Below, in pieces: positions 12,286 through 47,017 of a stretch of DNA of 62,566 bases. Origin of the DNA: Thermodesulfobacteriota bacterium (lineage in GTDB: Bacteria > Desulfobacterota > Binatia > UTPRO1); NCBI GenBank assembly GCA_036781285.1, contig DAIQBH010000006.1, forward strand, positions 1 to 62,566. The letters run 5' to 3'. Positions within the stretch are counted from its first letter, which is position 1, and every line of letters starts with the position of its first letter. Made by a program: the position numbers and the translations under genes. Below the pieces are notes generated by a model, which was not told where the DNA came from, did not search any database, and saw nothing but the letters and a program-made list of their open reading frames with translations.

Positions 12286-12300
12286 TAGAAGGAGTTCTTC

Positions 12301-17710: not shown

Positions 17711-17825
17711 GAGCGTGGAGCTCGGATCCGCCCAGTCGGCAGAAGGCGGCGGGAACCGTCCCCGTACCTGTCCGTGCGCTCCGACGCCACTCGCTGCGTG
17801 TACCCCGCGGCCCATGGCGGACGGG

Positions 17826-17856
17826 CGACTGGGCGTCACGGCGTGACGCCCAGTCG
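17826..17856. repeat. 31-bp near-perfect palindrome in a divergent intergenic region
   Basis: CGACTGGGCGTCACG-G-CGTGACGCCCAGTCG (15-bp arms). Confidence 0.9.
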
Positions 17857-17962
17857 TCACAGGTACAGACGACGAGTGGTTGCCCGTGTTCCGAGCGTCT
17901 CGGAGCGCCACTCCGCCGCCGCGCGTGAAGTCCGTTTGGACATCCGAACAAGGAGGAGAGAC

Positions 17963-23400: not shown

Positions 23401-24078
23401 CAGATCCCCGGCCAACGCCTCCGGCTCGGCGGCCTTTCGGTACGCGCGCAGGATCTGCGTCCAGGGCCAGTACGCCGGCGCGCCGCCGGCCTCGTGACAC
23501 TGGCCGCGAAGGATCGAGCAGCCGCGTGCCCGACCGAGGTTCGCGAGCTCCAACGTGAGACTCGTCTTGCCGATCCCTTCGTCGCCCGTGATGAGGACGA
23601 CCCGGCCCTCGCCGGCGACCACCCGTGCGAGCTCGTCGTCGAGCACGCGGAGCTCGGGCTCTCGGCCGACGAACGTCGGGCGCACTACGCGGTGCGCCGT
23701 CACGCGTTCGCGTCCCGTCGCGATCGCCTCGCGCACCTTCTCGACGATGCGGGATCCGTAGTCGCCTTGCTTCACCACGAAGTCGAAGGCGTCCGCCTTG
23801 ATCGCCTTGACGATCAGATCGGCGGCGTTGGAGCTCGACATCATGATCACGGGGCTCGTGATCTGCAGCGCGCGGATGCCGTGCAGGATCTGGAACCCGT
23901 CGTCGAGCGGCTGATCGTGATCGAGCACGATGCAGGCCGCGACGTTGGTCCGCAGGTACTCGAGCCCTTCGGCGCCGTTGACGACACGGTGGACGGCGAA
24001 GCCTGCGGCGGCCAGCGCCCGTTCGATGTGTTCAGCGGCGAGGCGCTCGTGCTCGACCAGCACGACGGGATCGGTCAC
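20413..24078 (-). CDS. Receiver domain plus STAND-type AAA ATPase plus helical repeats plus C-terminal putative DNA-binding domain
   Basis: N-terminal REC (VLDHDQP, SS, VKQ); Walker A GDEGIGKT; Walker B LVLDDLH; GHPLFV. GTG start follows a GAGGAG RBS. Confidence 0.85.
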   Translation of the reverse strand: MTDPVVLVEHERLAAEHIERALAAAGFAVHRVVNGAEGLEYLRTNVAACIVLDHDQPLDDGFQILHGIRALQITSPVIMMSSSNAADLIVKAIKADAFDFVVKQGDYGSRIVEKVREAIATGRERVTAHRVVRPTFVGREPELRVLDDELARVVAGEGRVVLITGDEGIGKTSLTLELANLGRARGCSILRGQCHEAGGAPAYWPWTQILRAYRKAAEPEALAGDLGDSTAALAWIAPTLRPASAASEPEPAMLTRFQIVDGVTQFLRRVAARRPLVLVLDDLHRADGDSAHLFRFVASECADVPILIAAAYRDDTAPAAVGDDLTRVASLPLATVLRLGRFDAATVRRYVEEATGLRPSSRVVDAIFGKTDGHPLFVAEVTRLLATDGRLSESGSSGELRLAIPATRRHAIADRLTRLSEGCRAVLGVAAVLGHEFSTDVLGAVMRTDGRTIRERLSEAVNDHQVAASDEEPSRYRFTHVLVRDVTYDALAPVERRALHRRIADVLEARAGETWSADDVEAPLAAIAHHCREGAATPADHERALHWVVAAGDHAALLMAHDDAARHFDAALLLLEKHRLTTQTTHDLLAKLADARRCAGDTKGARAAGRRALMLAETSGDPDRVAAAALAFAGRLPRFGAMGSTSQVAAELERALERLPESSRALRAQLMARLAEERAHGQGPSTPGLARAAIDLARATGDPGVLAAVLRTMHSALWTPGDIEWRPALADEIVALAARTGDRLLGMNGQLLRLWSALERGNVEAACQQLGVCQQLARAIRLPHFDWVTAAARICLSITMSRLDEAERLIDDALAKAAPTEAVSMLLIVRGQREHVRFLRGTTEDLTDWSHFVLTNFPNLAPTVECFTVWMDTFLGHPERARGRFATLMENGCARVRRDGTWPMNMAYLAGAAVLLEDSEAARTLYDLLAPFAAYNVLLPPCMLLGPVAHHLAGLAALLGDEAAARRHFEDALVLAERSGTRHWLARTLLAYGRHLLTSADPDDVQRGRALVESGRTLAISVDAQRLLRGSEAPDDHPLSAPRLEPERTRFFHRDEDAWEVEFRGLRATVPARAGMAYLRCLLERPGVPVPAIELASLGRDAALVSTAGGPAADHRALVGVRQRLIEIDAEITARARRNESPSPDLLHERRECARYLSRRGTELIGTADRARSGVTKAITRAIATITRVHPALGHHLARHVETGRLCMYVADPAAPVVLEQ

Positions 24079-24368
24079 GGCCGCTCCTCGCTCGCGCCGC
24101 GGCCGACGCGCATCCGGTGCGCCAGCCTGGAGGCTCTCGAGTGAGATCGGGTGAGCTGCGGAGCCCCAGGCGCAATGACACGGCACATCATTACGCTCTC
24201 CCCGTGACGCTCGCCGGCCCTCCTCTAGGGTCGGACGACGCGTGCACTGGCGGACGCGTACAGCCGGCGAGTTTCGGGAGTCAAGAGAAATGTGGCCGCG
24301 GCGCGGATCCACGCTCGGATGGGGAACGCGGGCGAGGTGGGTGAAGGGATCGTCGGGCCGCGAGTAGC

Positions 24369-24441: not shown

Positions 24442-25917
24442 ATGTTGCCGCCCAGAGAAACCTTCACGCTACCCGCCGTCGGCGACGCGCCGGTGCGGCT
24501 GTTCCAGAATCACCCCAGGCGACTGCGTATCATCGTAGGGGCCGTCGCGTTCGTGCTGCTGGCGGCCGCGCCGCTTTCCGCCGCGACGTTCAGGGTGAAC
24601 AGCACCGCGGATTCGTTCGACGGCGCGTGCGGCCCCGCCTCGGGCGAGTGCACGCTCCGCGAAGCGATCGTCGCCGCGGTCGAGACCGCCGGGCGCGACA
24701 CGATCCGGTTCGCCGCCGACGTGTTCGTGGCGGGCTCGGAATCGGTCCGTATCGATCTTGCCAGCGAGCTCCCGATCGTGGCCGACCCCGCCGGCACGGT
24801 GATCGACGGCGCCGGGGCGAGTGTCCGCATCTACGGCGGCGACACGATCCCGCACGGGCTGGTCTTCACGAGCGCGCCGGACGTGGCGCTCGGCAAAGTG
24901 ACGGTCGCGAACCTCGCGGTCGAGGGCTTCGGTGGTCATGGCATCCACGTCTGCGGCGGTGCGCCGCCGGAATGCGGCGCCGACGTCACGGGCGCCCTGC
25001 TCCGGAACGTCGTCGTCGTGAACTGCGACGGCACCGGCATCCGCGTCGAGGGCCGCGTCAACAAGAAGCCGCGCGTCGTCGACTCGGTGACGTTCGGCAC
25101 GGGCAACGACGGCATCCGGCTCTCCGGATCGCGGTCGATGATCGGCGCACGCGTCGAGGGCAGCACGGCGACACGGTGCGGGGGGAGCGCCATCGCGCTC
25201 CGCGCCGAGCAGCAGACGGGGTCGGCCGTCGTCGACTCGTTTGGCCTGAGATGCGTCGAGGACGGCGTGCTCGTGAGCGACGACGGCGCGACCATCAAGC
25301 CGACGATCGCGAACGTCGTGGCGCTCGGGAACCGCAACGGCATCGCGATGTCGAACGCCAAGCTGGTCGCGCCGACCATCACGAGCGCGGTCGCGACGGA
25401 CAACGAGGTCGGCGTGAAGCTGCTGGTCGGCGAGTCGACGGCGGCCGCGATCACGAAGGTCGTCGCCGACGCGAACATCATCCACGGCATCAACGTCGAG
25501 GGCGGGAGCGGCGTCACGATCTCCCGCTCGCGCGTCGTCGCCAACGGTTACTCCGGCGTCGCCACCGAGACGTCCGTCGATCTCGACGTCGTCGACGTCA
25601 TCGCGATGGGGAACCTCACCGGGGTCTCGCTCGGCTCGTCGAGCGGCGTCGTGACTCGGGTGAACGCGGCCAACAACCGCGGCCACGGGATCGGCGTCGA
25701 GATGCCGGGCGGCAACACGGTCATCGGTAATCTGACGCTCGCCAACGGCATCTACTCGGCCGGCGTCGGCATCGTCCAGGGCAGCGGCGGCAACGTCGTG
25801 CGGGAGAACGTCGCGCTCGGGCACACCTTCGACTTGTACGAGGACAACGTCGATTGCGGCACGAACCTCTGGACCGCCAACGTCTTCACGGAAGGAACCC
25901 TGCCATGCATTCGCTGA
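24442..25917 (+). CDS. Secreted CSLREA-domain / right-handed beta-helix protein
   Basis: FRVNSTADSFDGACGPASGECTLREAIVAA, followed by G(I/V)xV...N beta-helix repeats. Confidence 0.87.
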   Translation: MLPPRETFTLPAVGDAPVRLFQNHPRRLRIIVGAVAFVLLAAAPLSAATFRVNSTADSFDGACGPASGECTLREAIVAAVETAGRDTIRFAADVFVAGSESVRIDLASELPIVADPAGTVIDGAGASVRIYGGDTIPHGLVFTSAPDVALGKVTVANLAVEGFGGHGIHVCGGAPPECGADVTGALLRNVVVVNCDGTGIRVEGRVNKKPRVVDSVTFGTGNDGIRLSGSRSMIGARVEGSTATRCGGSAIALRAEQQTGSAVVDSFGLRCVEDGVLVSDDGATIKPTIANVVALGNRNGIAMSNAKLVAPTITSAVATDNEVGVKLLVGESTAAAITKVVADANIIHGINVEGGSGVTISRSRVVANGYSGVATETSVDLDVVDVIAMGNLTGVSLGSSSGVVTRVNAANNRGHGIGVEMPGGNTVIGNLTLANGIYSAGVGIVQGSGGNVVRENVALGHTFDLYEDNVDCGTNLWTANVFTEGTLPCIR

Positions 25918-27347
25918 TCTCGAGAAACGGCCTGCTCGCCGTCGCCGTCGCGCTCACGGCGGCGGTGTGGGCACCGACCGCTACTGCCAAGACCTTCGTC
26001 GTCGACGACCCGACCGACCCCGAGGTCGGGGACTGCAACGTCGCCGGCTCCTGCACCCTGCGGCAGGCGATTCTCGAAGCCGTCGCGTTTCCGGGACGCG
26101 ACGTGATCACCTTCGATCCGGCGGTTTTCCCGCCGGGTGCGCCCGGTACGATCCGCGTCGTATCGCCGCTCCCGATCATCGCGGACCCCGCGGGCACCGC
26201 GATCGACGGTACCGGTGCGGGTGTGCGCATCTCGTCGGATATCCCCGTCGATGACGACGCCATCGCGCCGAACGGGCTGGTCTTCGCGAGCGTGCCGGGT
26301 GTGCCGCTCCGCGACGCGGCGGTGACGAACGTGACCGTGGCGGGGTTCGAAAGCTCGGGCGTCGTGATCTGCGGCGGCGCGTATCCCGAGTGCAACGAGG
26401 ACGTCGTGGCTCCGGTCGTTCGACGGGTCACGGCCCGCTTCAACTCGGGAATCGGGATTCTCGTCCTGGGCCAGAACGTCACCAAGGCGCGCATCGACGA
26501 GTCCGTCGCCGCCGACAACGACACCGGAGTGCTCCTCAACGCGCTCGGCACGATCGCCGGCACTCGCATCACGCGCTCGGCCATGAAGGAGAACGAGTTC
26601 GCGGGCATCTGGATCGGTCCGCTCACCGGAACCATCGCCGACCTCGCGATCACGGACACGTCGGCGTCCCATGGCGCCGCGGCGATCATCGTCTCGGCCG
26701 TCGAGGACGCGGCGAAGGTCAGCCTCGCGAACGTCGCCGTCAGCGAGTCGGAGGGCATCGGAATTCTCCTGAACGCGATCACGATGTCGGCGCTCAGCGT
26801 CACGAACGTCGTCGCGTCACGCAACGCGAACCACGGCCTGTACGTCGGCGCCGACGCGTTGAGCGGCCTCGTGCTGAAGGACGTCGTCACCAACGGCAAT
26901 CAGCACGGAGTCTGGGTCCAGAGCGGCGGGGTCGTCGGCGCGAAGATCTCGCAGGTGACCGCCGCCGGCAACGACGCGAACGGCGTCCTGCTCTCGAACC
27001 TGAAGGGCGGGAAGCTCAGCCGCGTCGCGGCCGTCGGCAACGGCGCGCACGGCCTCGTGCTGACGGGCTCCGGCAACGTGCTGAAGCAGGTGCGGGCCGC
27101 GGAGAACATCGGCGACGGGATCCATCTCGGGAGCCCTGGAGGTGCGAATACCGTTACGGACGTCTCCGGCACGGCGAACCAGGGGGCCGGAATCTACGTC
27201 GCGGCCGACAGCGTCGGGAACACGATCAAGAAGAACGTGGCGCTCGGGAGTGATGCGATCGACCTGTTCGATGCGAATGTTTCGTGTGGGGCGAATGTTT
27301 GGAAGGGGAACGTATTCGAGCGGCGCAACGATTCGTGTATCCGGTAG
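25905..27347 (+). CDS. Secreted CSLREA-domain / beta-helix protein (tandem paralog)
   Basis: Signal peptide; SCTLRQAILEA; PIIADPAGTAIDG is shared with the upstream gene; 13-nt overlap. Confidence 0.87.
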   Translation: MHSLISRNGLLAVAVALTAAVWAPTATAKTFVVDDPTDPEVGDCNVAGSCTLRQAILEAVAFPGRDVITFDPAVFPPGAPGTIRVVSPLPIIADPAGTAIDGTGAGVRISSDIPVDDDAIAPNGLVFASVPGVPLRDAAVTNVTVAGFESSGVVICGGAYPECNEDVVAPVVRRVTARFNSGIGILVLGQNVTKARIDESVAADNDTGVLLNALGTIAGTRITRSAMKENEFAGIWIGPLTGTIADLAITDTSASHGAAAIIVSAVEDAAKVSLANVAVSESEGIGILLNAITMSALSVTNVVASRNANHGLYVGADALSGLVLKDVVTNGNQHGVWVQSGGVVGAKISQVTAAGNDANGVLLSNLKGGKLSRVAAVGNGAHGLVLTGSGNVLKQVRAAENIGDGIHLGSPGGANTVTDVSGTANQGAGIYVAADSVGNTIKKNVALGSDAIDLFDANVSCGANVWKGNVFERRNDSCIR

Positions 27348-27612
27348 GGGCGGGTCACTTCGAGACCACCAGGAGTGCTGGCGCGCGGAGTATGGGGACG
27401 GCTCCCGTCGCCTGCGGCGGACTCGCGTATGGTCGGCGCGGCGCGTGCACCCGGGGTCATGATTCGTCGCCCGGTGACGGGCGTATGAGGCTCGTATGGC
27501 GATCGGTGTCTTGCGGTCGGACTTTCGTTTTTACGCTCCTCGCCGAGACCGGCTCCGTCCGCCGTCCCCATACTCCGCGCGCCTGTGACGTCGCGTTCGA
27601 AGTGACCTGCCC
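27348..27612. mobile_element. ~265-bp element bounded by nested inverted repeats (MITE/REPIN-like)
   Basis: GGGCGGGTCACTTCGA (27348-27363) vs TCGAAGTGACCTGCCC (27597-27612), 15/16. Perfect 23-bp inverted repeat at 27380-27402 / 27561-27583. Confidence 0.55.
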
Positions 27613-27629
27613 GCGAACGTCGCGGTCGA

Positions 27630-30600
27630 ATGAACCAGCGCCACGCGTCCGATTGGCTGGTGCAACCCGCGTGCTTCCGGCTATCACGCCGTGTGGCTCG
27701 GGGGACGATTGCGGCGCGATTCGCGCACTTCGTTGCGGTGCAGCCGGATGCGCTGGCGATCGCATCGGGTGGGATGCGGTGGACGTACGCGGCGCTCGCT
27801 GACGCCGTCGCGGCGCTGGCGGAGCGCCTTCGGGTGCACGGTGACGCCGACAATCCGGTAGCGTTGATGCTGCCGCACGGCGCGCCGGTTGCGGTCGGGG
27901 TGCTCGCGGCGGCGCGGCTCGGGCGGCCGGCGGTGATCGTCGAGCCACGCATGCCGGGGGCGCGGCGGGATGCGATCGTCGCCGACGCGGGTGCGGCCGC
28001 GGTGGTCACGCTCGATGGCGCCGACCCTACCGCGTCGCTCGGGGTCACGTCGCTCGGACGTGCGGCGTGGAAGCGGCTCGCGCATCCCGCGCTCCAAGCA
28101 CCCGATCGGCCGGCGCTCGTGCTCTACACGTCGGGGTCGACCGGGACGCCGAACGGCGTCGTGTATTCCGAGCGTGCGATCCTCGATCGGGTGGTCGACC
28201 GCGACCGGTTCGCGCTCGGGCCGGGCGATCGTGTCGGGGTCTTCGGCGGCGCCGGGATGAACCTCTTCCGGACGTTGCTGCGCGGGGCGGCGCTCTCGGC
28301 ATGGGACGTCGAGCGCGATGGTGTCGCGGGCGTCGCCGAGTGGATCGCGCGCGAGGAGATCACCGTCCTCCACTGTCTTCCGACGCTCTTCCGAAGACTC
28401 ACCGATTCGTGGGAACGCACGCCCCACTTTCCCCGGCTCCGCTTCGTGAGTCTCACCGGCGAGCCGGTCGTGCGGCGCGACGTCGAGCGTTTCCGGCGCT
28501 GCTTCCCGTCGACCACCGTGCTCCTGAACGGTCTCGGCACGACCGAGGCGGGCACGTTCTGTCAGGCGGCGATCGATCCGACGACCGTGCTCGAGGGCGA
28601 CCTCGTCCCGGTGGGCCGCGCCGTCGACGGCATCGACGTGCTCGTGTGCGACGAGGCGGGGAGGGCGCTCCCCGCGGGGGCGGTCGGGGAGATCGTGGTG
28701 CGCGGCGCGCTGCTCGCGGTGGGCTACTGGCAACGGCCGGTGCTCGAAGCGAATCGCTTCGGACGCGATCCGTACGGCAACGGGCCGCGGCGCTATCGGA
28801 CCGGCGACCTCGGCCGTCTCGCCGCGGACGGCTCGCTCGTGCACCTCGGCAGGCGTGACCATCAGGTGAAGGTCCGCGGCGTGCGCATCGAGCCGGCCGA
28901 GGTCGAGGCGGCGTTGATGCGGCACCCGTCGGTGCGCCAGGCGGCCGTCATCGGGCACCCGGGAGAAGAAGGCGAGGCGCGTCTGATCGCCTGCGTCGCG
29001 ACTGCGGCATCCCGCGACGACCTCGCGACCGAGCTCGCCCGATTCGTGCGGACGCGGCTGCCGGACGCGCTCGTGCCCGACGGGTGGACGTTCGTCGATA
29101 CGCTGCCGCTCCTTCCCGGCGGCAAGGTGGATCGCCGGGCACTGCCGTTGCCGCCGCCGCGCCGCCCGCGCCGGCACGACGCGGGCATCGTCGAGCTCTT
29201 CATGTGCGCGGTGGCGCGCCACCCGGAGGCGATCGCGTATCGCTGCGGCGACGTGATCCTCGGCTACGGAGACCTCGACGATCGATCGGCCGCGCTCACC
29301 GCCCGGCTCGTCGCGGCCGGCCTCGCCGACCAGGACGTCGTCGCGATCGCGCTGCCGCGCGAGCCCGCGTACGCCGTCGCCATCCTCGCCGTGCTGCGGG
29401 CCGGCGGCATCTGTCTCCCGATCGATCCCGACGGTCCTGAGGAGCGGAACGAAGCGATGCTGCGCGCGAGCGGCGCCCGGCATCTCGTGGCCTACGATGC
29501 GTGCACGCTCGGCCGCGGCCTCGCGCGCATCGACCCGGCGGTCTCGACCGGCCCGACCGCGACCGCCACGCCGCATCCCCCGCACGACCCGTCACGCCTC
29601 GCGTTCCTCCTCTACACCTCGGGCTCGACCGGAACGCCGAAGGGCGTCGAGGTGACCGAGGGGCAGATCCTGCACCGCCTCGCCTGGGATTGGACGGCGC
29701 GGCCCTTCCGCGCCGGCGAGGTCACCTGCCAGCGTGCGGCGGTCGGCTTCGTAGACGCGATCGCGGAGTGGCTCGGCGGATTGCTCCAGGGTGTCCCCAC
29801 GGTGGTCCTGCCGGACGCGCTCCTCGAGCGCCCGCGGGATCTCGTCGCGACCCTCGCGGCGCGGGAGGTGAGCCGCATCCTGCTCGTGCCGTCGCAGCTC
29901 GGACTTCTCCTCGACACGATCGCCGACCTCGGCGCGCGGCTGCCGGCGCTTCGTCTCTGGACCGCGAGCGGCGAGCCGCTGCCGCCCGTGACGGTCGCGC
30001 GCTTCCGGAGCGCATGCCCGGACGCGTCGCTCTGGAACGTGTACGGCGCGACCGAAGCCTGGGACACGACCGCGCACGAGCTCCGCGGCGTCGAGAGCCC
30101 GGTGCCGATCGGCCTGCCGCTTCCGGGGATGCGCGCGTACCTCCTCGACGACGCGCTGGCACCGGTCGCGACCGGGGTCGCCGGCGACCTCTACGTCGCG
30201 GGCGACGGCCTCGCACGCGGCTACCGCGACGACGCCGAGCGCACGCGCGAACGGTTCCTCACGAATCCCTTCAGCCCGGGCCTCGGCGACCGCCTCTACC
30301 GCACCGGCGACCGCGCGCGCCGTCGCGACGACGGCGTGCTCGAGCACCTCGGGCGCACCGACCGCTGCGTGAAGCTCCGCGGCGTCCGCGTCGAGCTCGG
30401 GGAGGTCGAAGCGGTTCTGGCGGCGCATCCCGCCGTGCGCGAGGCGGCGGCCGTGCTGATCGACGAGCGGCTCGTCGCGTTCGTCACGCCGGCGGCGGAC
30501 ACGTTCGATCGCCCGGCGCTCGACGCCTGGGCCCGCGACCGGCTGCCGCGGGCCGCGGTTCCCGGACGGATCGTGAGCGTTCCGTCGCTCCCGCGGAACG

Positions 30601-31634
30601 ACCGCGGCAAGGTCGATCGCCCCGCGCTCCAAGAGCCCGCGCGCGTGCTCGAACGTCCGCGGACGGAGCTCGAAGAGACGGTCGCGGAAATCTTCGCCGA
30701 TCTCCTCGGTCGCGGCCGCGTCGGCGCGACCGAGGATTTCTTCGACCTCGGCGGCGACTCGCTGCTCGCCGTGCGGCTCGTCGCCGAGCTCGAGGCCCTG
30801 ACCGGCCGCGCCGCCACCCTCGACGCGATCGTGGCGGATCCGACCCCGCGCGGGATCGCGACGACCCTCACCGAAACCGGCTTCCCGTGGGAGACGGCCG
30901 ACTGCATCACGCTGCACCCGAACGGTGACGCGCTGCCGCTCTTCGCGATCTGCGGGGCCTGGGGATGGGCGGTGCGGCTCCTGCGCGTCGGGCGCGCGCT
31001 CGGCGACGGGATTCCCATGTACGCGCTCCAGCCTCCCGCCATGGCATGGCCCGAGGGCGCGACGATCGAGGCGATCGCCGCGCACTATGCCGATCGCGTC
31101 GAGGCGCGCACGCCGTCGGGAGCGATCCGGCTCCTCGGGACGAGCTTCGGTGGCATCCTCGCGTTCGAGGTCGCGGTGCAGTTGCAGGCGCGCGGCCGCG
31201 CCGTTGCGCTCCTCGCGATGGTCGACTCGGCGGCACCTGGCTCGGCGCTGAAAGAGCCGCCGCCCGCCTCGGGCGCGAGCCCGATCGAGGCCGCCGGTCG
31301 CCGCGTGTACTTCGCGCACCTCGCGGCCTCGGAGGCGTATGCTCCGACCGCCCGCTTCGACGGCCGCATCCTCTACTTCCAGTGCAGCCGCTCGGTCAGC
31401 CGGGCCACTCCGGAGCGCTGGGCGCCGTTCACGCGTGCCGGCGTCGAGGTCGTCGTCGTGCCGGGCGAGCACGGACAGTTCCACGTCGAGCCGCAGCTCG
31501 GCGCGATCACGCGCGTGCTCGCGAAACGGCTCTCAGTCGCCGCAGCCGGCGCGGGGGAGGAGCCCGACGCGCTCCTTCAGCGCGAGCACGCGCCGGAGCG
31601 AGCGATCGATCCGGTCGACGCCGAGCTCGCCTGA
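27630..31634 (+). CDS. NRPS-like protein, A-A-T-TE architecture with no condensation domain
   Basis: Two sets of A-domain motifs (YTSGSTG, YRTGD, GRxDxxVKxRG, GKVDR); one carrier domain FFDLGGDSL; thioesterase GTSFGG with His in GEHG. Confidence 0.9.
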   Translation: MNQRHASDWLVQPACFRLSRRVARGTIAARFAHFVAVQPDALAIASGGMRWTYAALADAVAALAERLRVHGDADNPVALMLPHGAPVAVGVLAAARLGRPAVIVEPRMPGARRDAIVADAGAAAVVTLDGADPTASLGVTSLGRAAWKRLAHPALQAPDRPALVLYTSGSTGTPNGVVYSERAILDRVVDRDRFALGPGDRVGVFGGAGMNLFRTLLRGAALSAWDVERDGVAGVAEWIAREEITVLHCLPTLFRRLTDSWERTPHFPRLRFVSLTGEPVVRRDVERFRRCFPSTTVLLNGLGTTEAGTFCQAAIDPTTVLEGDLVPVGRAVDGIDVLVCDEAGRALPAGAVGEIVVRGALLAVGYWQRPVLEANRFGRDPYGNGPRRYRTGDLGRLAADGSLVHLGRRDHQVKVRGVRIEPAEVEAALMRHPSVRQAAVIGHPGEEGEARLIACVATAASRDDLATELARFVRTRLPDALVPDGWTFVDTLPLLPGGKVDRRALPLPPPRRPRRHDAGIVELFMCAVARHPEAIAYRCGDVILGYGDLDDRSAALTARLVAAGLADQDVVAIALPREPAYAVAILAVLRAGGICLPIDPDGPEERNEAMLRASGARHLVAYDACTLGRGLARIDPAVSTGPTATATPHPPHDPSRLAFLLYTSGSTGTPKGVEVTEGQILHRLAWDWTARPFRAGEVTCQRAAVGFVDAIAEWLGGLLQGVPTVVLPDALLERPRDLVATLAAREVSRILLVPSQLGLLLDTIADLGARLPALRLWTASGEPLPPVTVARFRSACPDASLWNVYGATEAWDTTAHELRGVESPVPIGLPLPGMRAYLLDDALAPVATGVAGDLYVAGDGLARGYRDDAERTRERFLTNPFSPGLGDRLYRTGDRARRRDDGVLEHLGRTDRCVKLRGVRVELGEVEAVLAAHPAVREAAAVLIDERLVAFVTPAADTFDRPALDAWARDRLPRAAVPGRIVSVPSLPRNDRGKVDRPALQEPARVLERPRTELEETVAEIFADLLGRGRVGATEDFFDLGGDSLLAVRLVAELEALTGRAATLDAIVADPTPRGIATTLTETGFPWETADCITLHPNGDALPLFAICGAWGWAVRLLRVGRALGDGIPMYALQPPAMAWPEGATIEAIAAHYADRVEARTPSGAIRLLGTSFGGILAFEVAVQLQARGRAVALLAMVDSAAPGSALKEPPPASGASPIEAAGRRVYFAHLAASEAYAPTARFDGRILYFQCSRSVSRATPERWAPFTRAGVEVVVVPGEHGQFHVEPQLGAITRVLAKRLSVAAAGAGEEPDALLQREHAPERAIDPVDAELA

Positions 31635-32657
31635 CGCGACCGCGCGGACCGCGCGCGTCACGATGTCGGCGACGTCGCGCGCCGTCTTCGCCCCGAGCAG
31701 CCAGTCGTTGCCGGCGAGCCAGGCGGCGACGGCGCGGTCGCCGATCGTCGACTCGGCGCCCACGCTCGCGCCCTTCATTCCGAGACTGTCGACCACGACG
31801 ACGCCGTCGAAGCCGAGCGCATCGCGAAGACCGCCGGTGACGACCGCCGGCGCCAGCGACCCCGGCCGCGCCGGGTCGAGCGCGTCGACGATCACGTGGC
31901 TCACCATGATCGCGTGCACGCCGCCCGCCGCGAGGAGCGTCCGATAGGGTGCCCAATCGATCGCCTCGAGCTCGTCGCGCGTCACCGCCGTGCGCGGCAG
32001 CATCTGGTGGGGGTCCTCGGCGACCGACCCGAGCCCGGGGAAGTGCTTGAGCACGCCGACCACGCGGCCGCTCGCTTGCAGCCCGTCGAGGTAGGCGCCC
32101 GCGAAGCGCGCGACCGTCGCGGCGTCGCCGCCGAAGGTCCGCTCCGAGAGCTGCCAGTTGTAGACGCGGGTCACGTCGACGACCGGCGCCAAGTTGACCG
32201 CGATGCCGAGGCGGGCGAGATCGGCCGCGTCCTCGCGGCCCGCCGCCGCCGCGCGCGCCGGGTCGGTGCTCGCCGCGAGCGTCTCGGCCGACGGGCGTTT
32301 CCCGCGCACCGATTCCAGGCGATCGACGCGCCCCCCCTCTTGGTCGACGACGACGGCGAGGGGCACGGCGCTCACGTCCTGCATCGTCGTGACCAGGCGC
32401 TGCACCTGCGCACCGTCGACGATGTTTCCCGCCTTGGCGTACACGGCGACCCCACCGACCCGGTGACGGCGGATCATCGCCGCGAGGTCGGGCGCGAGGA
32501 CGGGACCGTCGAAACGGACGATCAGGAGCTGCGCGATCTTCCACTCGAGATCGAGCGTCGCGAGCCAGTCGTCGGCCGAGCAGGCACGCCGCGCATCCGA
32601 AAACGACAGCGATGCGAGCCCGGCGACGAGCAGGGCGACGGCGATCCAGCGCGGCAC
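31533..32657 (-). CDS. nagZ: GH3 beta-N-acetylhexosaminidase (NagZ-like), probably exported
   Basis: VDQEGGRV, APVVDV, KHFPGLG, D-P-H loop, VDSLGM. Hydrophobic N-terminus. Confidence 0.85.
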   Translation of the reverse strand: MPRWIAVALLVAGLASLSFSDARRACSADDWLATLDLEWKIAQLLIVRFDGPVLAPDLAAMIRRHRVGGVAVYAKAGNIVDGAQVQRLVTTMQDVSAVPLAVVVDQEGGRVDRLESVRGKRPSAETLAASTDPARAAAAGREDAADLARLGIAVNLAPVVDVTRVYNWQLSERTFGGDAATVARFAGAYLDGLQASGRVVGVLKHFPGLGSVAEDPHQMLPRTAVTRDELEAIDWAPYRTLLAAGGVHAIMVSHVIVDALDPARPGSLAPAVVTGGLRDALGFDGVVVVDSLGMKGASVGAESTIGDRAVAAWLAGNDWLLGAKTARDVADIVTRAVRAVASGELGVDRIDRSLRRVLALKERVGLLPRAGCGD

Positions 32658-32750: not shown

Positions 32751-33899
32751 ATGGCCTATCCGGGCTCCACCACCGTCGTCATCACGGGCATGCATCGCTC
32801 GGGCACGTCCTTCGTGGCGAGCGCGCTCGAGGCCGCGGGTCTGCCGGTCGGCGAGCGGCTCCTCACCGACTTCCCGGGCAACCCGCGCGGCCACTTCGAG
32901 GATCTCGATTTCGTGACCGTCCACGAGGATGCGCTCGCGTCCTTGCCGGAAGGCTCGTTCGTCACGTCCGACGCGGCGCTGGCGTTCGATGCCGAGCAGC
33001 GCGCGCGCGTCGCCGCCCTGATCGCGGCGCGCGGCGCGCTTCCCGCCTGGGGCTTCAAGGACCCGCGGACGACGCTCTTCCTCGACGAGTGGCGGCGGCT
33101 GCTGCCGCGGGCGCGCTGGGTGCTCCTCTATCGCCATCCGCTCGAGGTGCTGACGTCGATCCTCCGCCGCGGCATCAACCGCGACGTCCTCGCGGTTCCG
33201 GCGCTCGGTCTCCGCGTCTGGCGCGCGTACAACGAACGTCTCCTCGCGTTCCACGCGGCGCACCCCGGCGAGAGCCTGCTCGCGTCGATCGACGCGGTCG
33301 GCGCCGATGTGGCGGGCTTCGTCCACCGCGTCGCCGCCGGGCTCGGCCTCGGGCTCGACGGCGCGCGTGCGGCGGAACGGTTCCATGCCGGCGACCTCCG
33401 GGCGCTTGCTCTCGGCACGCGTGCCGAGGCCGTGCTCCGCACGCTCCATCCCGACGTGGCCGCGACGCTCGCCCGTCTCGACGCCGCCGCCGACCTCGCG
33501 CGTCCGGCCCGGGGCGCGCCGGACGCGGAGGGGATCGCGCTGGTCGAAGCGCTCGCGTCCGTGCCGGGTGCGCCCGCCCTGGAGTGTCTCCTCGCGCTCG
33601 TCACGCCGGACACCTGGCAAGGCGTGCCCGCGAAGCTCCTGGCGTCGATTCGCGCCGTCGAGGCCGAGCACCGCAAGCTCGGCGACGACTGGCATCAGCA
33701 GAAGCGGTACATCGAGGCGCAGGCCGCCTACATCGGAGAGCTCGACACGGAGCGCGCCCGGCTCGACGCGGAGCGCGCCCGGCTCGACGCCGAGCGCGCC
33801 CGGCTCGCGACGGAAGTCGAGCGGCTCGCCGCGGAGCTCCGAAGGACGACCGACGAGAGCCTGCTCGACCAGGTGCTGCGCCGCCTGCGGCTCGGCTGA
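32751..33899 (+). CDS. Sulfotransferase-fold protein with a C-terminal coiled coil
   Basis: ITGMHRSGTS, WGFKDPRT, YRHPLEV..S; heptads RLDAERA. Confidence 0.85.
   Translation: MAYPGSTTVVITGMHRSGTSFVASALEAAGLPVGERLLTDFPGNPRGHFEDLDFVTVHEDALASLPEGSFVTSDAALAFDAEQRARVAALIAARGALPAWGFKDPRTTLFLDEWRRLLPRARWVLLYRHPLEVLTSILRRGINRDVLAVPALGLRVWRAYNERLLAFHAAHPGESLLASIDAVGADVAGFVHRVAAGLGLGLDGARAAERFHAGDLRALALGTRAEAVLRTLHPDVAATLARLDAAADLARPARGAPDAEGIALVEALASVPGAPALECLLALVTPDTWQGVPAKLLASIRAVEAEHRKLGDDWHQQKRYIEAQAAYIGELDTERARLDAERARLDAERARLATEVERLAAELRRTTDESLLDQVLRRLRLG
33741..33803 (+). repeat. Three 21-bp in-frame tandem repeats encoding heptads
   Basis: CTCGAC(A/G)C(G/C)GAGCGCGCCCGG x3. Confidence 0.9.
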
Positions 33900-33910: not shown

Positions 33911-35335
33911 TCAGCCCGCGCCGTCGACCTCCGCTGTCAGAAGCGGCAGGAGCACGGCGGCGAGCGCGTCGACGATCTCCGGCGGGACCGGCCGCTCCTC
34001 GTCACGCACGCGGGCGAAAAGCGCGCCGATGGCGTCCCGTGTCTCCATGTCGAGCGCGCTCGACGCGCCGAGCTTGCCCTCGCGCGGCTCCACTTTCAGC
34101 GGATCGCGTTTGGCGTGCGCCCGTCCGACCACCGAGGCGAAATGGAGGAGCGCCCGATCGAGCAGCACCCACGGGAACTGGCGATCGCGGAGCGGCCCGA
34201 TCGTCGCGATGCGCCCGGCAACGCTTTGTCCGAGCACCTTCACCTCGACGGCCTGTTCGGTGCCGAACCAGCTCGCGATGCCTCCGACGACGCCGCCGAT
34301 CACGCTGCCGAGGAGGAACGAGTGTCCGAGTGTCGCCGCGTCGATGACGCCGCCGATCGCAGCGCCGCCGATCGCCCCCGCGCGCACGATCTGCCACTGG
34401 TCGAGGCCGAACACGCGCCGGTTCTCCTGCGCGAAGAGATCCCACTCGAAGGCCTCGGGCGCGAGGGCGGCCTCCTCGCGCGTGACCCGCTCGTGCCGGT
34501 AGAGCCGCTCGATCTCGCGCCGCGCGCGCTGCTCGCGGTCGCGGAGCGCCGCGAGGAACTCGGACTCCCACGCGACCCGGTGTCGTTCGATCGTGTCGTT
34601 CTCGGCGAGCGGGTGCTCCACGGTGAAGGTCACGGCGTCCGCGACGAGCTCGGCGACGATCGCGGCGGCACGGTCGCGCCGCCGTCGCCAGTCCGCCTCC
34701 AGCACGCGGATCGCTTCGTCGATGGAGGCCCGCGCGCCGGCGTCGAGCTCGCGAAAGGCGCGGAGCAGCGCCACGCGCTCCGCGAAGCCGGAGCGGTGGG
34801 CGTCGAACGGGCGTACCACGCTGAAGTATTGGCCGAGCGCGCGCGTCCATTCGTCGACGTGGTCGGCGCCGCCGATCGCGTTCACGAGCGCCATGCGTGG
34901 ACGGCCGGTCCAGCGCAGGATCTCCATCTCGGCCTCGTAGTTCCGGCGGTACGGCAGCGACGCGTCGACCACGTAGAGGATCGCGGCGCCGTCGAGGATC
35001 GGGGTCAGCAGCGCGCACTCGTCGGCGAACTCGGCGCCGCCGCGGAACGTCTCGACGAAGCGCGCGACGAGCGCCGGCCGGTCGGCGGCGCTCTGCTCAC
35101 GCTCCTGGAGCCAGGCGAGCGCGCGCGGCGCCTCCTCGAAGCCCGGCGTGTCGATCGCATAGCAGAGCACGCGGCCGTCGTCGGCGCGGAACGGGAAGCG
35201 GGCGCAGACCCGCGTCGTGCCGGGCTCCTTGTCGACGCGGACGGAGTCGTCCTCCACCAGCGTCGAGACGACGCTCGACTTCCCCTTGTTCACGCGCCCG
35301 ACGACCGCGAAGGCCGGAACCGCGTATTCGGTCAC
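33911..35335 (-). CDS. GTPase/DUF3482-like protein
   Basis: G1 GRVNKGKS, G2 PGTT, G3 DTPG, G4-like VNAI; GxxxG transmembrane hairpin. GTGA overlap with the upstream stop. Confidence 0.8.
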   Translation of the reverse strand: MTEYAVPAFAVVGRVNKGKSSVVSTLVEDDSVRVDKEPGTTRVCARFPFRADDGRVLCYAIDTPGFEEAPRALAWLQEREQSAADRPALVARFVETFRGGAEFADECALLTPILDGAAILYVVDASLPYRRNYEAEMEILRWTGRPRMALVNAIGGADHVDEWTRALGQYFSVVRPFDAHRSGFAERVALLRAFRELDAGARASIDEAIRVLEADWRRRRDRAAAIVAELVADAVTFTVEHPLAENDTIERHRVAWESEFLAALRDREQRARREIERLYRHERVTREEAALAPEAFEWDLFAQENRRVFGLDQWQIVRAGAIGGAAIGGVIDAATLGHSFLLGSVIGGVVGGIASWFGTEQAVEVKVLGQSVAGRIATIGPLRDRQFPWVLLDRALLHFASVVGRAHAKRDPLKVEPREGKLGASSALDMETRDAIGALFARVRDEERPVPPEIVDALAAVLLPLLTAEVDGAG

Positions 35336-36846
35336 GAGACCAACGCCTCCACGCGGAGCCACGGGTCGCCGAGCGCGGCGACCCGCTGGCGCCAGATCCG
35401 CACGTCGTCCGGCTTCGGCGCGGCGTGATCGTCCGATCCGCCGAAGAGTGCCACGATCACCGGGACGCGCTCGCCGACGCTCCGCCGCACGTTCTGCAAG
35501 AGACGCTGGACGCTCTTCGACGGCGGCTCGAAGGCCTCCGCGACGAGGAGCACCGGCCGGTCGCTTTCCGCGAGCGCGGCGAGATGCCGGCGCTCTCCGG
35601 GGTCGTCGTCGCCGCGGACGTCGTCGAGCGACGCGACCTGCCAGCCGTATCGCGCGCCGACGAGCCGCGCGACGTCGTCCCGCGAAACCGCCGCGTCGGC
35701 CCAGCGGAGCGCGCGGACCACGACGCCGCTCACGGGAAGGGCGCAGCCGCTTCCGACGTCCGCCGTCGGTGACGCTACGACCGCCGTGCCGACGGTGTCG
35801 CCGCGGCCCCAGAGGTTCGCGCGCTGGAGAAGGCGCTCGCAGAGCGCCGCGCACTCGCCGTGATCCAGGGCCAGCGCCGCGCGTGCGCGGCGCGCGCGAT
35901 GCGCGGCGTACGTCGCGAGGAGTATCCGCGGCACGAGCGCGTACGCGACGAGCGCGGCGACGAGAAACGGCCACCAGTCGCCGAGGAGATCGGGGTCGTA
36001 GTCGCGCCCCGGGAAGTAGCGGCTCGCGGCGACGAGCTCCGGGCTCGGCACCGCTGCGTCGAGCCAGAGCCACGGTGTCGCCATCGCGTGGAAGAAGCTG
36101 GTCATGACGGCAGGGTCGACCTCGAGCGTGGTGCTCCACGCGAACGCGAGCGCGCGAACCGTCACGAGGTACATCGTCGCCGCCAGCGCGCCGAGATTGA
36201 AGGCGACGGCCGCACGCTGCGTGAGCGCCGTCAGCAACCAACGCTCGACGTCGGCGTAGATGGTTTGCCAGGCGGCCAGTCGTCCCAACGCGGCCCGTCC
36301 GCGCGCGCCGACGGCGCCGTGATCCGCGAGCTTTCGCGCGCTCCGGTGCGCGAGCTCGCGGAGCAGCGCCGGCACGCCGGCGCCACGATCGAGTCCGAGG
36401 ACCCGCGCCACGCCGCCGAGCCACGCGCGCGGCACCATGCCGATCACCGTGAGCGCGATGAGCGCCACCTGGAGGAACACGAGCACCGCCAGATAGCCGA
36501 CGATGTTCACCGGATCGCGCCCGTCGTACGCGAGCAACCCCGCCGCCGTTGCCGCACCCGCGACGAACGTCGCGATCGGCAAGAGAACGCCGGCGGCCCG
36601 ATACACCCCACTGATCCGCTCCCCTACCGACGCCCCCGCAGGATCGCCGACGGCCGTGAGCCAATGCCGCACGAGCTGCCGCCGCGACAGCGAAGCGGCG
36701 CGCCCTCCGAGCGCATCGGCGATCCGCGCATCCCGCGCCGCAACCTCGCCAGGATCCCGCTCCCGATCCTCGAGCAACCGCACCTCGAGATCGATGAGCT
36801 CGGCCAACGACAGCGGCCCCCGCCCCGGCTCCACGGCGCCGGTCAC
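35332..36846 (-). CDS. DUF2868-like membrane protein
   Basis: Three hydrophobic segments, LAFAWSTTL, WWPFL...Y.LVPR, C-terminal EAFEPP. Usual partner of the DUF3482 GTPase. Confidence 0.72.
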   Translation of the reverse strand: MTGAVEPGRGPLSLAELIDLEVRLLEDRERDPGEVAARDARIADALGGRAASLSRRQLVRHWLTAVGDPAGASVGERISGVYRAAGVLLPIATFVAGAATAAGLLAYDGRDPVNIVGYLAVLVFLQVALIALTVIGMVPRAWLGGVARVLGLDRGAGVPALLRELAHRSARKLADHGAVGARGRAALGRLAAWQTIYADVERWLLTALTQRAAVAFNLGALAATMYLVTVRALAFAWSTTLEVDPAVMTSFFHAMATPWLWLDAAVPSPELVAASRYFPGRDYDPDLLGDWWPFLVAALVAYALVPRILLATYAAHRARRARAALALDHGECAALCERLLQRANLWGRGDTVGTAVVASPTADVGSGCALPVSGVVVRALRWADAAVSRDDVARLVGARYGWQVASLDDVRGDDDPGERRHLAALAESDRPVLLVAEAFEPPSKSVQRLLQNVRRSVGERVPVIVALFGGSDDHAAPKPDDVRIWRQRVAALGDPWLRVEALVS

Positions 36847-39123: not shown

Positions 39124-39454
39124 CGTCGTTCTGCGCCTCCGCGTCCGCAACCACCCGGGGGTGATGTCCCACGTCTGCGGCCTCTTCGCGCGCCGCGCCT
39201 TCAACGTCGCGGGAATCATCTGCGTTCCCGTCGCCGATGGCGCCGAGAGCGCGGTGCTTCTTCTCGTTCAGGACGACGATCGCCTCGAGCAGATGATCCG
39301 CCAGCTCGCAAAGCTCGAGGACGTGTGCGCGATCGTCCGGACGGACGAGGCGGCAGCCGCGTTCGCGGCGGCTGCCGTCCTGCTATCGGCCGATCGACTG
39401 TGGCCGCTCTCGGCGGCCGATCAGAGCTCGCAGCGCCGGAAGGGCCCCGCTTGA
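39107..39454 (+). CDS. ilvN: AHAS small subunit, short ACT-only IlvN type
   Basis: [22 protein letters not shown]...[17 protein letters not shown]. Confidence 0.93.
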
Positions 39455-41451: not shown

Positions 41452-41462
41452 GTCTCGTCTCC

Positions 41463-41924: not shown

Positions 41925-41931
41925 GGCGCGT

Positions 41932-46722: not shown

Positions 46723-46810
46723 CGGTCGCGAGGCTTTCTATCCCGAATTTAACTGCTCTCTAACCCTTCTCGAAGGACTTGGCGGGGCGCCTCACGCATC
46801 CTCCGCGGCC

Positions 46811-47017
46811 ATGAGCACACATGCCGCGAAGCGCGCGACCGAGCGCGCGTTCGTCATCCAGTTCGATCCCGTCGCGGGGCGCCGCGGGCGCCTCCGCGGG
46901 CGGGTCGAGATGGTGGCCTCGGGCGAGGCCATCCGCTTCGGCTCGATCAAGCAGCTGACGACGTTCCTGGTCGACGTCCTACGCCGGCCGGTGGCCACCG
47001 AGGAGACCTTGTCATGA
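46811..47017 (+). CDS. 68-aa hypothetical protein coupled to the downstream STAND gene
   Basis: MSTHAAKRATERAFVIQFDPVAGRRGRLRGRVEMVASGEAIRFGSIKQLTTFLVDVL. Its stop overlaps the next start (ATGA). It supplies the GAGGAG RBS. Confidence 0.7.
   Translation: MSTHAAKRATERAFVIQFDPVAGRRGRLRGRVEMVASGEAIRFGSIKQLTTFLVDVLRRPVATEETLS

What the first reader, a model, noticed from the sequence alone, without database searches (positions are those of the whole stretch)
27630..31634. A-A-T-TE synthetase: two adenylation domains, one carrier, no condensation domain
Seen: A1 ends GKVDRRALPLPPPRRPRR and runs directly into A2 without a carrier domain. A1 has TPNG (Lys to Asn) in the P-loop and a shortened, Gly-rich A4 region (VFGGAGMN), but keeps TGD and the A10 Lys. 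A2 has FVD in A4. Known: normal modules are C-A-T, and stand-alone A-T-TE enzymes dimerise keto-acids. Inference: A2 loads the carrier while A1 forms a bond in a C-domain-independent way, or is a structural relic. No tailoring cluster is adjacent; the neighbours are envelope genes, so the product may decorate surface glycans.
Basis: partly seen in the sequence, partly recalled or inferred. Interest (0 to 1): 0.66.

Follow-up and report, generated by a model that had tools for sequence, protein, structure and literature searches.

The report
Two-adenylation-domain NRPS-like enzyme, no condensation domain
This is a real, conserved bacterial gene for a small thiotemplate enzyme with two intact substrate-activating domains, one carrier and one releasing domain. 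Both activating domains look built for acids that are not ordinary amino acids, and the gene almost always sits beside an exported sugar-cleaving (NagZ-like) enzyme. Its product is unknown.

Summary
ORF 27630-31634 (+) encodes a 1334-aa A-A-T-TE protein with no condensation domain.

It is not an assembly chimera. Fifteen homologues (42-83% identity) from independent Betaproteobacteria/Casimicrobiaceae metagenome assemblies keep the same architecture and the same A1-A2 junction.

A1 is not a relic. Its core motifs and its 10-residue pocket code are conserved, and its dN/dS is no higher than that of A2. The Lys-to-Asn change in the P-loop is confined to the window's own clade.

Both A domains are NRPS-type but lack the two hallmarks of alpha-amino-acid activation. 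Position 235 is Gly in A1 and Val in A2 instead of Asp, and the A5 proline is replaced in both. They probably activate keto, hydroxy or other non-amino acids.

A1's nearest outside relatives are stand-alone A-T loaders with the same pocket code. A2-T-TE also exists as a stand-alone paralogue.

In 8 of 9 genomic contexts the gene lies next to a signal-peptide-bearing NagZ-like GH3 gene, drawn from two different GH3 lineages. In three contexts it also lies next to AnmK.

Best reading (about 0.4): both A domains load the single carrier, and the TE joins two different acids and releases them. This would be a new variant of the A-T-TE NRPS-like enzymes. Substrates and product are unknown.

The parts
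27630..31634 (+). Complete A-A-T-TE gene (1334 aa). An alternative GTG start at 27693 matches the start of the closest orthologues.
27717..29144 (+). A1, an NRPS-type adenylation domain (residues ~30-505). Its pocket code is GGMTVLGTFK.
   Evidence: TIGR01733 scores 296 bits, the top hit but just under the 317 cut-off. The best PDB matches are NRPS A domains. The code is conserved. dN/dS is 0.20. The AF2 model shows a complete fold.
28125..28160 (+). A1 A3 / P-loop YTSGSTGTPNGV, with Lys changed to Asn at residue 175.
   Evidence: Asn occurs only in the window clade. The others have Lys, with one Thr and one Arg.
28236..28268 (+). A1 shortened, Gly-rich A4 region GVFGGAGMNLF. Gly206 takes the place of Asp235.
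   Evidence: HMMER alignment to LgrA. G206 and M210 are invariant.
29118..29138 (+). A1 A10 motif GGKVDRR, containing the catalytic Lys499.
   Evidence: K499, D501 and R502 are invariant.
29145..29186 (+). Pro/Arg-rich A1-A2 linker PLPPPRRPRRHDAG (residues 506-519). No carrier domain lies here.
   Evidence: The junction is conserved in all 15 family members.
29187..30638 (+). A2, an NRPS adenylation domain (residues ~520-1003). Its pocket code is VDASWAVDTK.
   Evidence: TIGR01733 scores 348 bits, above the 317 cut-off. PDB alignment. The code is conserved.
29748..29771 (+). A2 A4 motif FVDAIAEW. Val708 takes the place of Asp235, and Asp709 sits at position 236.
   Evidence: Ungapped HMMER alignment to 8xjz and LgrA. 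F707, V708 and D709 are invariant.
30678..30866 (+). Carrier (T/PCP) domain. The phosphopantetheine-attachment Ser1044 lies in GGDSL (30759-30761).
   Evidence: PF00550. G1041, G1042, D1043, S1044 and L1045 are invariant.
30912..31529 (+). Type I thioesterase domain. It has Ser1172 in GTSFGG (31143-31145), Asp1199, and His1281/His1285.
   Evidence: PF00975. The closest solved TE is that of EntF. The named residues are invariant.
31533..32657 (-). Conserved neighbour: a NagZ-like GH3 glycosidase with an N-terminal signal peptide. It is convergent with the A-A-T-TE gene, and the two 3' ends overlap by 102 bp.
   Evidence: PF00933. The NagZ model scores 167 bits against a 207 cut-off. The adjacency holds in 8 of 9 contexts. 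Alignment and motif.
32751..33899 (+). Sulfotransferase_3 gene. It is kept next to the GH3 gene only in the window clade, so its membership of the system is uncertain.
24442..27347 (+). Two tandem beta-helix/NosD-like genes upstream (24442-25917 and 25854-27347). They occur only in the window clade and are probably not part of the system.

Best explanation
The gene encodes a cytoplasmic, condensation-free NRPS-like enzyme in which both adenylation domains are functional.

Each A domain selects a different carboxylic acid that is not a standard alpha-amino acid. The candidates are alpha-keto acids, alpha-hydroxy or alpha-alkoxy acids, or acids that carry an amine away from the alpha carbon.

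Both domains take turns loading the single phosphopantetheinyl carrier at Ser1044. The first acyl group is passed to the thioesterase Ser1172. The second is then loaded, and the TE joins the two units through an ester or C-C bond and releases a small mixed two-unit product.

In effect this is an A-T-TE enzyme that gained a second loader, so it can make a hetero-dimer rather than a homo-dimer. Its physiological role is tied to an exported NagZ-like glycosidase and so to amino-sugar or cell-wall turnover.

Shown: the domain order, intact motifs, conserved pockets, absence of Asp235 and of the A5 Pro in both A domains, purifying selection, conservation of the family, and the GH3 linkage.

Inferred: that A1 uses the cis carrier, that the TE performs the coupling, the nature of the substrates, and any link between the product and the GH3 enzyme.
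For: Architecture without a C domain.

Fifteen full-length homologues at 42-83% identity share the same junction.

In A1 the A3, A5, A7, A8 and A10 residues are invariant, and its pocket code G[GA]MT[VL][LVA]GTFK is kept down to the 42%-identity orthologue. The A2 code VD[AW][ST][WV][AV]VD[TAC]K is kept likewise.

dN/dS is 0.20 for A1 and 0.27 for A2 within the Asn clade, and similar in deeper pairs.

Both domains score best as NRPS amino-acid-adenylation domains and against solved NRPS A domains. AF2 models both as complete folds, with pLDDT 83.

Position 235 is Gly (A1) or Val (A2), and the A5 Pro is Thr or Ala. The A-domain review states that keto- and hydroxy-acid A domains replace Asp235 by a small or hydrophobic residue. 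It also states that the keto-acid domain StsA has lost the A5 proline (PMC11253843). Val at code position 1 is taken as the alpha-keto-acid signature in A-T-TE enzymes (PMC10316625).

A1's closest outside relatives are A-T didomain proteins with the same code, that is, carrier loaders.

A2-T-TE exists alone as a 55%-identical paralogue in L087.

The TE is closest to the ester-forming EntF TE and its triad is invariant.
Against: No biochemical data exist for any family member.

I know of no proven case of two A domains sharing one carrier in an A-T-TE enzyme. The basidiomycete quinone-synthetase study I read (PMC10316625) states that it found no evidence for hetero-dimerisation.

The A1-A2 linker is only about 13 residues. 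This may hinder the carrier from reaching A1 in cis.

The window's own A1 has Asn in place of the P-loop Lys, which may lower its adenylation rate.

A2 has invariant Asp residues at positions 236 and 330. These suggest a substrate with a positively charged group, not a plain keto acid.

No aminotransferase or other keto-acid-supplying gene is nearby.

No close similarity (below 40%) to any characterised A-T-TE enzyme was found.
Confidence: 0.4

Rival explanations
1. A2 loads the carrier. A1 makes an acyl-adenylate and transfers it directly onto a nucleophile (amine or hydroxyl) of the carrier-bound A2 substrate. A1 would thus act as a condensation-independent amide or ester synthetase, and the TE would then release the product.
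For: There is no C domain. A1 is intact and constrained. The invariant Asp709 and Asp812 in the A2 pocket could hold a substrate amine that then serves as the nucleophile. Adenylating enzymes that form amides directly are known, for example the amide bond synthetases such as McbA (PMC6282839, listed). From my own recollection, the stand-alone A domain of streptothricin biosynthesis does the same.
Against: A1's nearest relatives are A-T fusions that load their own carrier. In L091 such a relative sits beside a C-A-T-TE module that would do the coupling. So the ancestral chemistry of this A-domain lineage is thioester formation. Nothing in the sequence distinguishes A1 from those loaders.
Confidence: 0.2
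2. A1 is fused but works on another partner. It loads a carrier protein encoded elsewhere, the T domain of another subunit or of the A-T-TE paralogue, or it makes an acyl-CoA or acyl-adenylate for a separate pathway. In this reading A2-T-TE operates as an ordinary A-T-TE enzyme.
For: A2-T-TE occurs as a self-sufficient stand-alone paralogue. A1-type domains occur in separate A-T proteins. The short linker may make delivery in cis difficult.
Against: No carrier, PPTase or CoA-related gene is conserved next to the gene in any of the 9 contexts. The fusion and its junction are conserved across the whole family, which argues for a coupled function.
Confidence: 0.15
3. A1 is catalytically dead or dispensable, and serves as a structural or regulatory module. 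This would match the first A domains of PyrG (pyridomycin) and AurA (auriculamide). It might apply at least in the window's clade, where the P-loop Lys is Asn.
For: Tandem A domains with a non-functional first copy are the documented precedent (PMC10510592). Five sequences carry Lys175Asn.
Against: The review describes PyrG A1 as lacking the critical A3 residues and the catalytic Lys. Here the rest of A3, plus A5, A7, A8 and the A10 Lys, are invariant. The substrate-pocket residues are conserved too, which a purely structural domain would not need. dN/dS in the Asn clade is 0.20, no higher than in A2. Most family members keep the Lys.
Confidence: 0.12
4. The A-A junction is an assembly or frameshift artefact that joins two separate genes.
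For: None was found. The idea arises only from the rarity of the architecture.
Against: The same junction (GKVDRRALP-PPPRR...GIVE-F) appears in 15 proteins from independent NCBI, JGI, ENA and Logan assemblies. GC3 and reading frame are uninterrupted.
Confidence: 0.01

Closest known systems
Non-reducing NRPS-like A-T-TE enzymes (quinone and furanone synthetases such as atromentin and polyporic acid synthetases)
   Same: Both have an A-T-TE core and no condensation domain. [quoted passage not shown] A TE is expected to do both the joining and the release (PMC10316625 and PMC9047271).
   Different: This protein has an extra, intact N-terminal A domain with a different pocket. It is bacterial (Betaproteobacteria). 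No close sequence similarity to a characterised member was found. The A2 pocket has two invariant Asp residues. There is no aminotransferase partner. The known enzymes couple two identical units.
Tandem-A NRPS modules: PyrG (pyridomycin) and AurA (auriculamide)
   Same: Two A domains are fused back to back with no carrier between them (PMC10510592).
   Different: In those cases the first A is degenerate (it lacks the critical A3 residues and the catalytic Lys) or dispensable, and the module sits inside a C-containing assembly line. Here A1 keeps all motifs except one Lys, and only in one clade. It keeps its pocket, is under purifying selection, and has no C domain anywhere near it.
Stand-alone A-T didomain proteins with the G[GA]MTVLGTFK-type pocket (uncharacterised; P0122, P0124, P0125, P0126)
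   Same: They are 42-48% identical to A1. They share the shortened GxGGMN A4 region, the GLGTTEAGTF A5 motif, and essentially the same pocket code.
   Different: They carry their own T domain. In L091 one sits beside a C-A-T-TE module, and in two loci one sits beside NanE. A1 has lost its T and is fused to A2.
ANL amide-bond synthetases and amide-forming stand-alone A domains (McbA; streptothricin ORF19, the latter from memory)
   Same: They would explain coupling without a C domain.
   Different: No specific sequence relationship was found. A1 groups with carrier-loading NRPS A domains.
EntF terminal thioesterase
   Same: It is the closest solved TE. The GxSxG motif and the Asp align.
   Different: Similarity is low (about 65 bits). 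EntF is a full C-A-T-TE module.

Membership tests
NRPS adenylation domain (TIGR01733 AA-adenyl-dom) | The score reaches the curated cut-off of 317.4 bits. | tested here: met
   A2 scores 348 bits.
NRPS adenylation domain (TIGR01733 AA-adenyl-dom) | The same cut-off, applied to A1. | tested here: inconclusive
   A1 scores 296 bits. This is its top-ranked family but lies just below 317.4. Its best PDB matches are all NRPS A domains.
ANL adenylate-forming enzyme, catalytically competent (A1) | Core motifs A3 (P-loop), A5 (TE), A7 (TGD), A8 (hinge GRxDxQxKxRGxRxE) and the A10 Lys. | tested here: inconclusive
   A5, A7, A8 and A10 are invariant across the family. A3 is present, but its Lys is Asn in the window clade. 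Activity was not assayed.
Alpha-amino-acid-activating A domain | Asp at position 235 (GrsA numbering) and Pro in the A5 motif NxYGPTE. | tested here: not met
   A1 has Gly206 and GTTE. A2 has Val708 and GATE. The criteria come from PMC11253843.
Canonical NRPS elongation module (C-A-T) | A condensation domain (PF00668). | tested here: not met
   There is no PF00668 hit in the protein or in any gene of the window.
Non-reducing NRPS-like A-T-TE enzyme | A tri-domain A-T-TE layout with a single A domain. | tested here: not met
   Two A domains precede T-TE. The A2-T-TE part on its own fits the layout, and a stand-alone paralogue exists.
Non-reducing NRPS-like A-T-TE enzyme | Val at the first code position, the alpha-keto-acid signature. 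| tested here: met
   A2 Val708 is invariant. The criterion comes from PMC10316625.
Non-reducing NRPS-like A-T-TE enzyme | The TE couples two alpha-keto acid units. | not testable with these tools
   This needs enzyme assays.
Tandem-A module with a degenerate first A (PyrG type) | The first A lacks the critical A3 residues and the catalytic Lys. | tested here: not met
   A1 keeps YTSGSTGxP(K/N)G and Lys499. The criterion comes from PMC10510592.
NagZ beta-N-acetylhexosaminidase (the neighbouring gene 31533-32657) | The score reaches the NF003740 cut-off of 207 bits, and the protein is a cytoplasmic recycling enzyme. | tested here: not met
   It scores 167 bits, the best family but below cut-off. 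The KHFPGxG....H motif is present, but the protein has an N-terminal signal peptide. In the second GH3 group this is Tat-like (RRKLL).

The most novel reading that the evidence does not exclude
In this reading the A1-type pocket (Gly at positions 235, 236 and 322, conserved from stand-alone A-T proteins to this fusion) is built for a bulky sugar acid. The candidates are N-acetylmuramic or anhydro-muramic acid (an alpha-alkoxy acid) or a sialic-type acid.

This would explain why A1-type domains sit next to amino-sugar genes in both architectures. In the fusion the neighbours are a NagZ-like GH3 and AnmK. In the stand-alone form the neighbour is NanE.

The enzyme would then thiotemplate a cell-wall-turnover sugar acid onto a second acid. 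That would be a previously unknown branch of amino-sugar or peptidoglycan salvage or signalling, carried out by an NRPS-like enzyme.
Probability: 0.08. Interest if true: 0.85.

Novelty: new variant of a known kind. Interest (0 to 1): 0.5.

Why it matters
The A-T-TE NRPS-like enzymes I could read about are described as joining two identical acids. The tandem A domains described in the review I read have a dead or dispensable first copy.

Here both A domains are intact, have different conserved pockets, and share one carrier and one thioesterase. That makes this a natural candidate for condensation-free coupling of two different acids. Such a mechanism would be useful for engineering mixed dimers and for understanding how thiotemplate enzymes work without C domains.

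The repeated pairing with exported NagZ-like glycosidases, and with AnmK, hints at a link between a thiotemplate enzyme and amino-sugar or cell-wall turnover. No such link turned up in the one literature search I ran for it.

If instead A1 proves inactive, this is merely another orphan NRPS-like gene.

Tried and rejected
- **Genome survey.** It returned only generic NRPS loci of at most 41% identity, and none carried the WNVYGATE motif. It says nothing about presence or absence of the family.
- **Representative search.** An exhaustive HMMER search with residues 20-1100 was swamped by giant multimodular NRPSs whose many stretches add up. It was useless as an architecture survey.
- **Junction query.** A query spanning the A1-A2 junction found only Asub-T fragments at about 50% coverage, and no further A-A junction proteins.
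- **First impression of A1.** A1 first looked like an exosortase-associated acyl-CoA ligase. This was an artefact of summing two stretches. A1 alone scores best as an NRPS A domain.
- **Collapsed bimodular NRPS.** I tested whether the fusion arose from an A-T plus C-A-T-TE system by loss of T and C. The C-A-T-TE next to the A1-like protein in L091 has an ordinary amino-acid A domain only 34% identical to A2, so there is no specific link.
- **Plasmid search.** tblastn of A2-T-TE against annotated plasmids gave nothing above 40% identity and no characterised A-T-TE enzyme.
- **Fold search.** Foldseek of the AF2 model returned only generic NRPS A domains.
- **Literature.** Searches for the pocket codes, for PDB entry 8XJZ and for anmK/nagZ together with adenylation domains found nothing. 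My recollection that a V-D start of the code marks beta-alanine domains could not be verified and is not used.
- **Small downstream gene.** The 84-aa gene downstream in L003 and L087 is a Gly-rich membrane protein, not a carrier or an MbtH-like protein.


Full report
**Observation**

The window has about 70% G+C, so long spurious ORFs occur in every frame. A codon-position GC test picks out 27606-31634 on the + strand (GC3 0.89) as the coding frame.

The ORF from ATG 27630 to the stop at 31634 translates to 1334 aa without interruption. Pfam finds AMP-binding plus AMP-binding_C twice. It finds one PP-binding domain (1017-1079) and one Thioesterase (1122-1205). It finds no Condensation domain.

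HMMER alignments to solved NRPS structures confirm two points:
- A1's A4 region is shortened by five residues, and FGGAGMNLF lies over LgrA FDGSALDIF.
- A2's FVDAIAEW aligns without gaps over F-D-V-S-V-W-E-M, so Val replaces Asp235.

**Not an artefact, not a one-off**

A search of 5.8 billion proteins returned 15 further proteins of 1264-1374 aa. They cover 94-98% of the query at 42-83% identity, have the same Pfam content and have no C domain. Where named, they come from Betaproteobacteria or Casimicrobiaceae MAGs.

In their alignment the A1-A2 junction (GKVDRRALP-PPPRR..GIVE-F) is conserved. So are the carrier Ser1044 and the TE residues Ser1172, Asp1199 and His1281/1285. The sequences come from independent NCBI, JGI, ENA and Logan assemblies. 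The chimera hypothesis is therefore refuted.

**Is A1 alive?**

The Lys-to-Asn change in the A3 P-loop is limited to the window and its four closest orthologues. Eight of the other ten aligned homologues have PKG, one has PTG and one PRG. Several lines argue that A1 is functional:
- The remaining A3 residues, A5 (TTE), A7 (Y-TGD), A8 (GRxDxQxKxxGxRxE) and A10 (K499, D501, R502) are invariant.
- The ten pocket positions read G[GA]MT[VL][LVA]GTFK in all nine orthologues for which I had DNA, including the 42%-identity one. I placed these positions by motif against GrsA numbering and checked them against the HMMER alignments.
- Nei-Gojobori dN/dS between the window and its Asn-clade orthologue is 0.20 for A1 and 0.27 for A2. 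Deeper pairs give similar values for the two domains. Absolute values are compressed by the GC bias, but the comparison between domains holds.
- AlphaFold2 on residues 20-1010 gives two complete A-domain folds, with mean pLDDT 83.4 and pTM 0.67.

This differs from the documented tandem-A cases. In PyrG the first A lacks the critical A3 residues and the catalytic Lys, and in AurA it is dispensable (PMC10510592).

**What kind of A domains?**

My first impression, from whole-protein scores, was that A1 is an acyl-CoA ligase. That was wrong. Scored alone, A1's best family is the NRPS amino-acid-adenylation model, at 296 bits against a cut-off of 317. A2 passes that model at 348 bits. The best solved relatives of both are NRPS A domains.

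Both domains nevertheless lack the two marks of alpha-amino-acid activation. Position 235 is Gly in A1 and Val in A2. The A5 proline is Thr in A1 and Ala in A2.

The A-domain review states that hydroxy- and keto-acid domains replace Asp235 with a small or hydrophobic residue. It also states that the keto-acid domain StsA has lost this proline, and that changing it in LgrA increases keto-acid activation (PMC11253843). In A-T-TE enzymes, Val at code position 1 is taken to indicate alpha-keto acids (PMC10316625).

A2 additionally has invariant Asp residues at positions 236 and 330. These could bind a distal positive group. I therefore leave the substrate class open beyond 'not a standard alpha-amino acid'.

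**Origins of the two halves**

A1's closest relatives outside the family are A-T didomain proteins (35-48% identity). The nearest ones share the GxGGMN A4 region, GLGTTEAGTF and essentially the same pocket code. So A1 descends from a carrier-loading domain and has lost its own carrier.

In L087 a stand-alone A-T-TE gene lies on the other side of the GH3 gene. It is 55% identical to A2 and 50% identical to T-TE, and it has the same GFVDAIAEW motif. The protein therefore looks like a fusion of an A1-type loader to an A-T-TE enzyme.

**Genomic context**

Nine contexts were recovered, counting the window.
- In the window and L086 the order is beta-helix genes, then the A-A-T-TE gene, then a convergent GH3 gene whose 3' end overlaps it by about 100 bp, then a sulfotransferase.
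- In L001, L088 and L089 the gene lies between a divergent AnmK and the same convergent GH3. The AnmK is a bona fide anhydro-MurNAc kinase, at 471 bits against a cut-off of 367.
- In L003, L004 and L087 a GH3 gene is instead divergent and upstream.
- Only the most distant member, L005, lacks a GH3 gene. It has a sulfatase-family gene upstream instead.

The two GH3 sets are only 33-39% identical to each other, against 50-90% within the first set and 67-83% within the second. The A-A-T-TE proteins show no such split. The window protein is about 58-60% identical to members of both the AnmK-linked clade and the divergent-GH3 clade. Two different GH3 lineages have therefore ended up beside the gene, while the outer flanks differ everywhere. 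That argues for a functional link rather than inherited synteny.

The GH3 proteins score best as NagZ but below its cut-off (167 against 207 bits). They keep the KHFPGxG....H motif. They also carry N-terminal signal peptides, which are Tat-like (RRKLL) in the second set. They are therefore exported enzymes, not the cytoplasmic recycling NagZ.

The window holds no AnmK. It also holds no PPTase, MbtH-like, carrier, C-domain or tailoring gene.

Separately, the A1-like stand-alone A-T proteins sit divergently next to a NanE gene at two loci carrying two different proteins, P0126 in L090 and P0125 in L091. The L091 NanE scores 199 bits on the Pfam model. In L091 the A-T protein also sits next to a C-A-T-TE NRPS whose A domain is an ordinary amino-acid type unrelated to A2.

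**Mechanism**

The most economical reading is that both A domains are active on different non-amino acids. Both serve the only carrier, and the EntF-like TE joins and releases the two units. This makes the protein a hetero-coupling version of an A-T-TE enzyme. I give it about 0.4.

It stays possible (0.2), but it is not favoured by A1's ancestry among carrier loaders. A1 acting in trans gets 0.15 and A1 inactive gets 0.12. A chimera is excluded.

**Novelty**

Tandem A domains and A-T-TE enzymes are both known. An 'A-A-T-Te' NRPS-like gene is listed, uncharacterised, in Aspergillus niger (PMC12368960).

What is new here is the combination. The family is conserved and bacterial. Both A domains are intact and of the non-amino-acid type. 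There is one carrier and no C domain. The gene recurs beside exported NagZ-like glycosidases. I rate it a new variant of a known kind, of moderate interest, with an unproven but testable mechanism.

**Limits**

All functional statements beyond domain content, conservation and context are inference. The attempts at a wider survey failed for technical reasons. The true distribution of the architecture is therefore unknown.

Noticed in passing
window 31533-32657 (-); also L001, L003, L004, L086-L089: The NagZ-like GH3 genes beside the synthetase carry signal peptides. In L003, L004 and L087 these are Tat-like (RRKLL). They fall into two lineages only 33-39% identical. The second lineage has N-S-H instead of D-x-H in the KHFPGxGxxxxDxH motif. 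In the window the gene overlaps the synthetase tail-to-tail by 102 bp.
   Followed up: partly
L090 9424-11575; L091 9222-11749 (and L092): Stand-alone A-T proteins with the same pocket code as A1 lie divergently next to a bona fide NanE (ManNAc-6-P epimerase family) gene at two loci carrying two different proteins. In L091 there is also a C-A-T-TE NRPS and a 423-aa membrane-anchored protein with a GDS(F) motif and no Pfam hit.
   Followed up: partly
L087 6042-8579 (+): A stand-alone A-T-TE paralogue (845 aa) is 55% identical to A2 and 50% identical to T-TE. It has the same FVD motif, but Gly replaces the pocket Asp at position 330. It lies on the other side of the GH3 gene from the A-A-T-TE gene.
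   Followed up: partly
window 24442-25917 and 25854-27347 (+); L086 3903-9947: These are tandem beta-helix/NosD-like genes. The first has a CSLREA N-terminal domain. There are two copies in the window and four in the orthologous locus L086, which suggests a locally expanding family.
   Followed up: no
window 33911-35332 and 35332-36846 (-): A DUF3482 GTPase and a DUF2868 protein form an abutting gene pair. The pair is also conserved in L086. Function unknown.
   Followed up: no
window 20413-24312 (-), 43765-46737 (-), 46753-50421 (+): Three large AAA_16/STAND-type regulators (990-1299 aa) lie within 30 kb. Their N-terminal parts differ: a receiver domain in the first, a Trans_reg_C domain in the second, and no N-terminal domain hit in the third. 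Two of the three also carry TPR repeats.
   Followed up: no
window 50455-52509 (-): A queuine tRNA-ribosyltransferase (TGT, 473 bits) is fused to a C-terminal Methyltransf_30 domain, giving a 684-aa protein. I have not seen this fusion described.
   Followed up: no
window 12289-13455 (+): An ORF matches Dictyostelium CTDC Cys-rich repeats (PF00526). This is odd for a betaproteobacterial contig. The region has lower G+C (about 0.65) than the rest of the window.
   Followed up: no
window 16034-17974 (-) versus 16676-20356 (+): A 646-aa pseudouridine synthase ORF overlaps a 1226-aa + strand ORF that has no Pfam hit. Both show coding-like GC3, so the true gene boundaries here are unclear.
   Followed up: no
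window 39421-41931 (-), 56458-57816 (-): An RTX calcium-binding repeat protein and an OpgC/acyltransferase_3 membrane protein are further envelope or secreted functions in the window. Neither is conserved near the synthetase in other loci.
   Followed up: no
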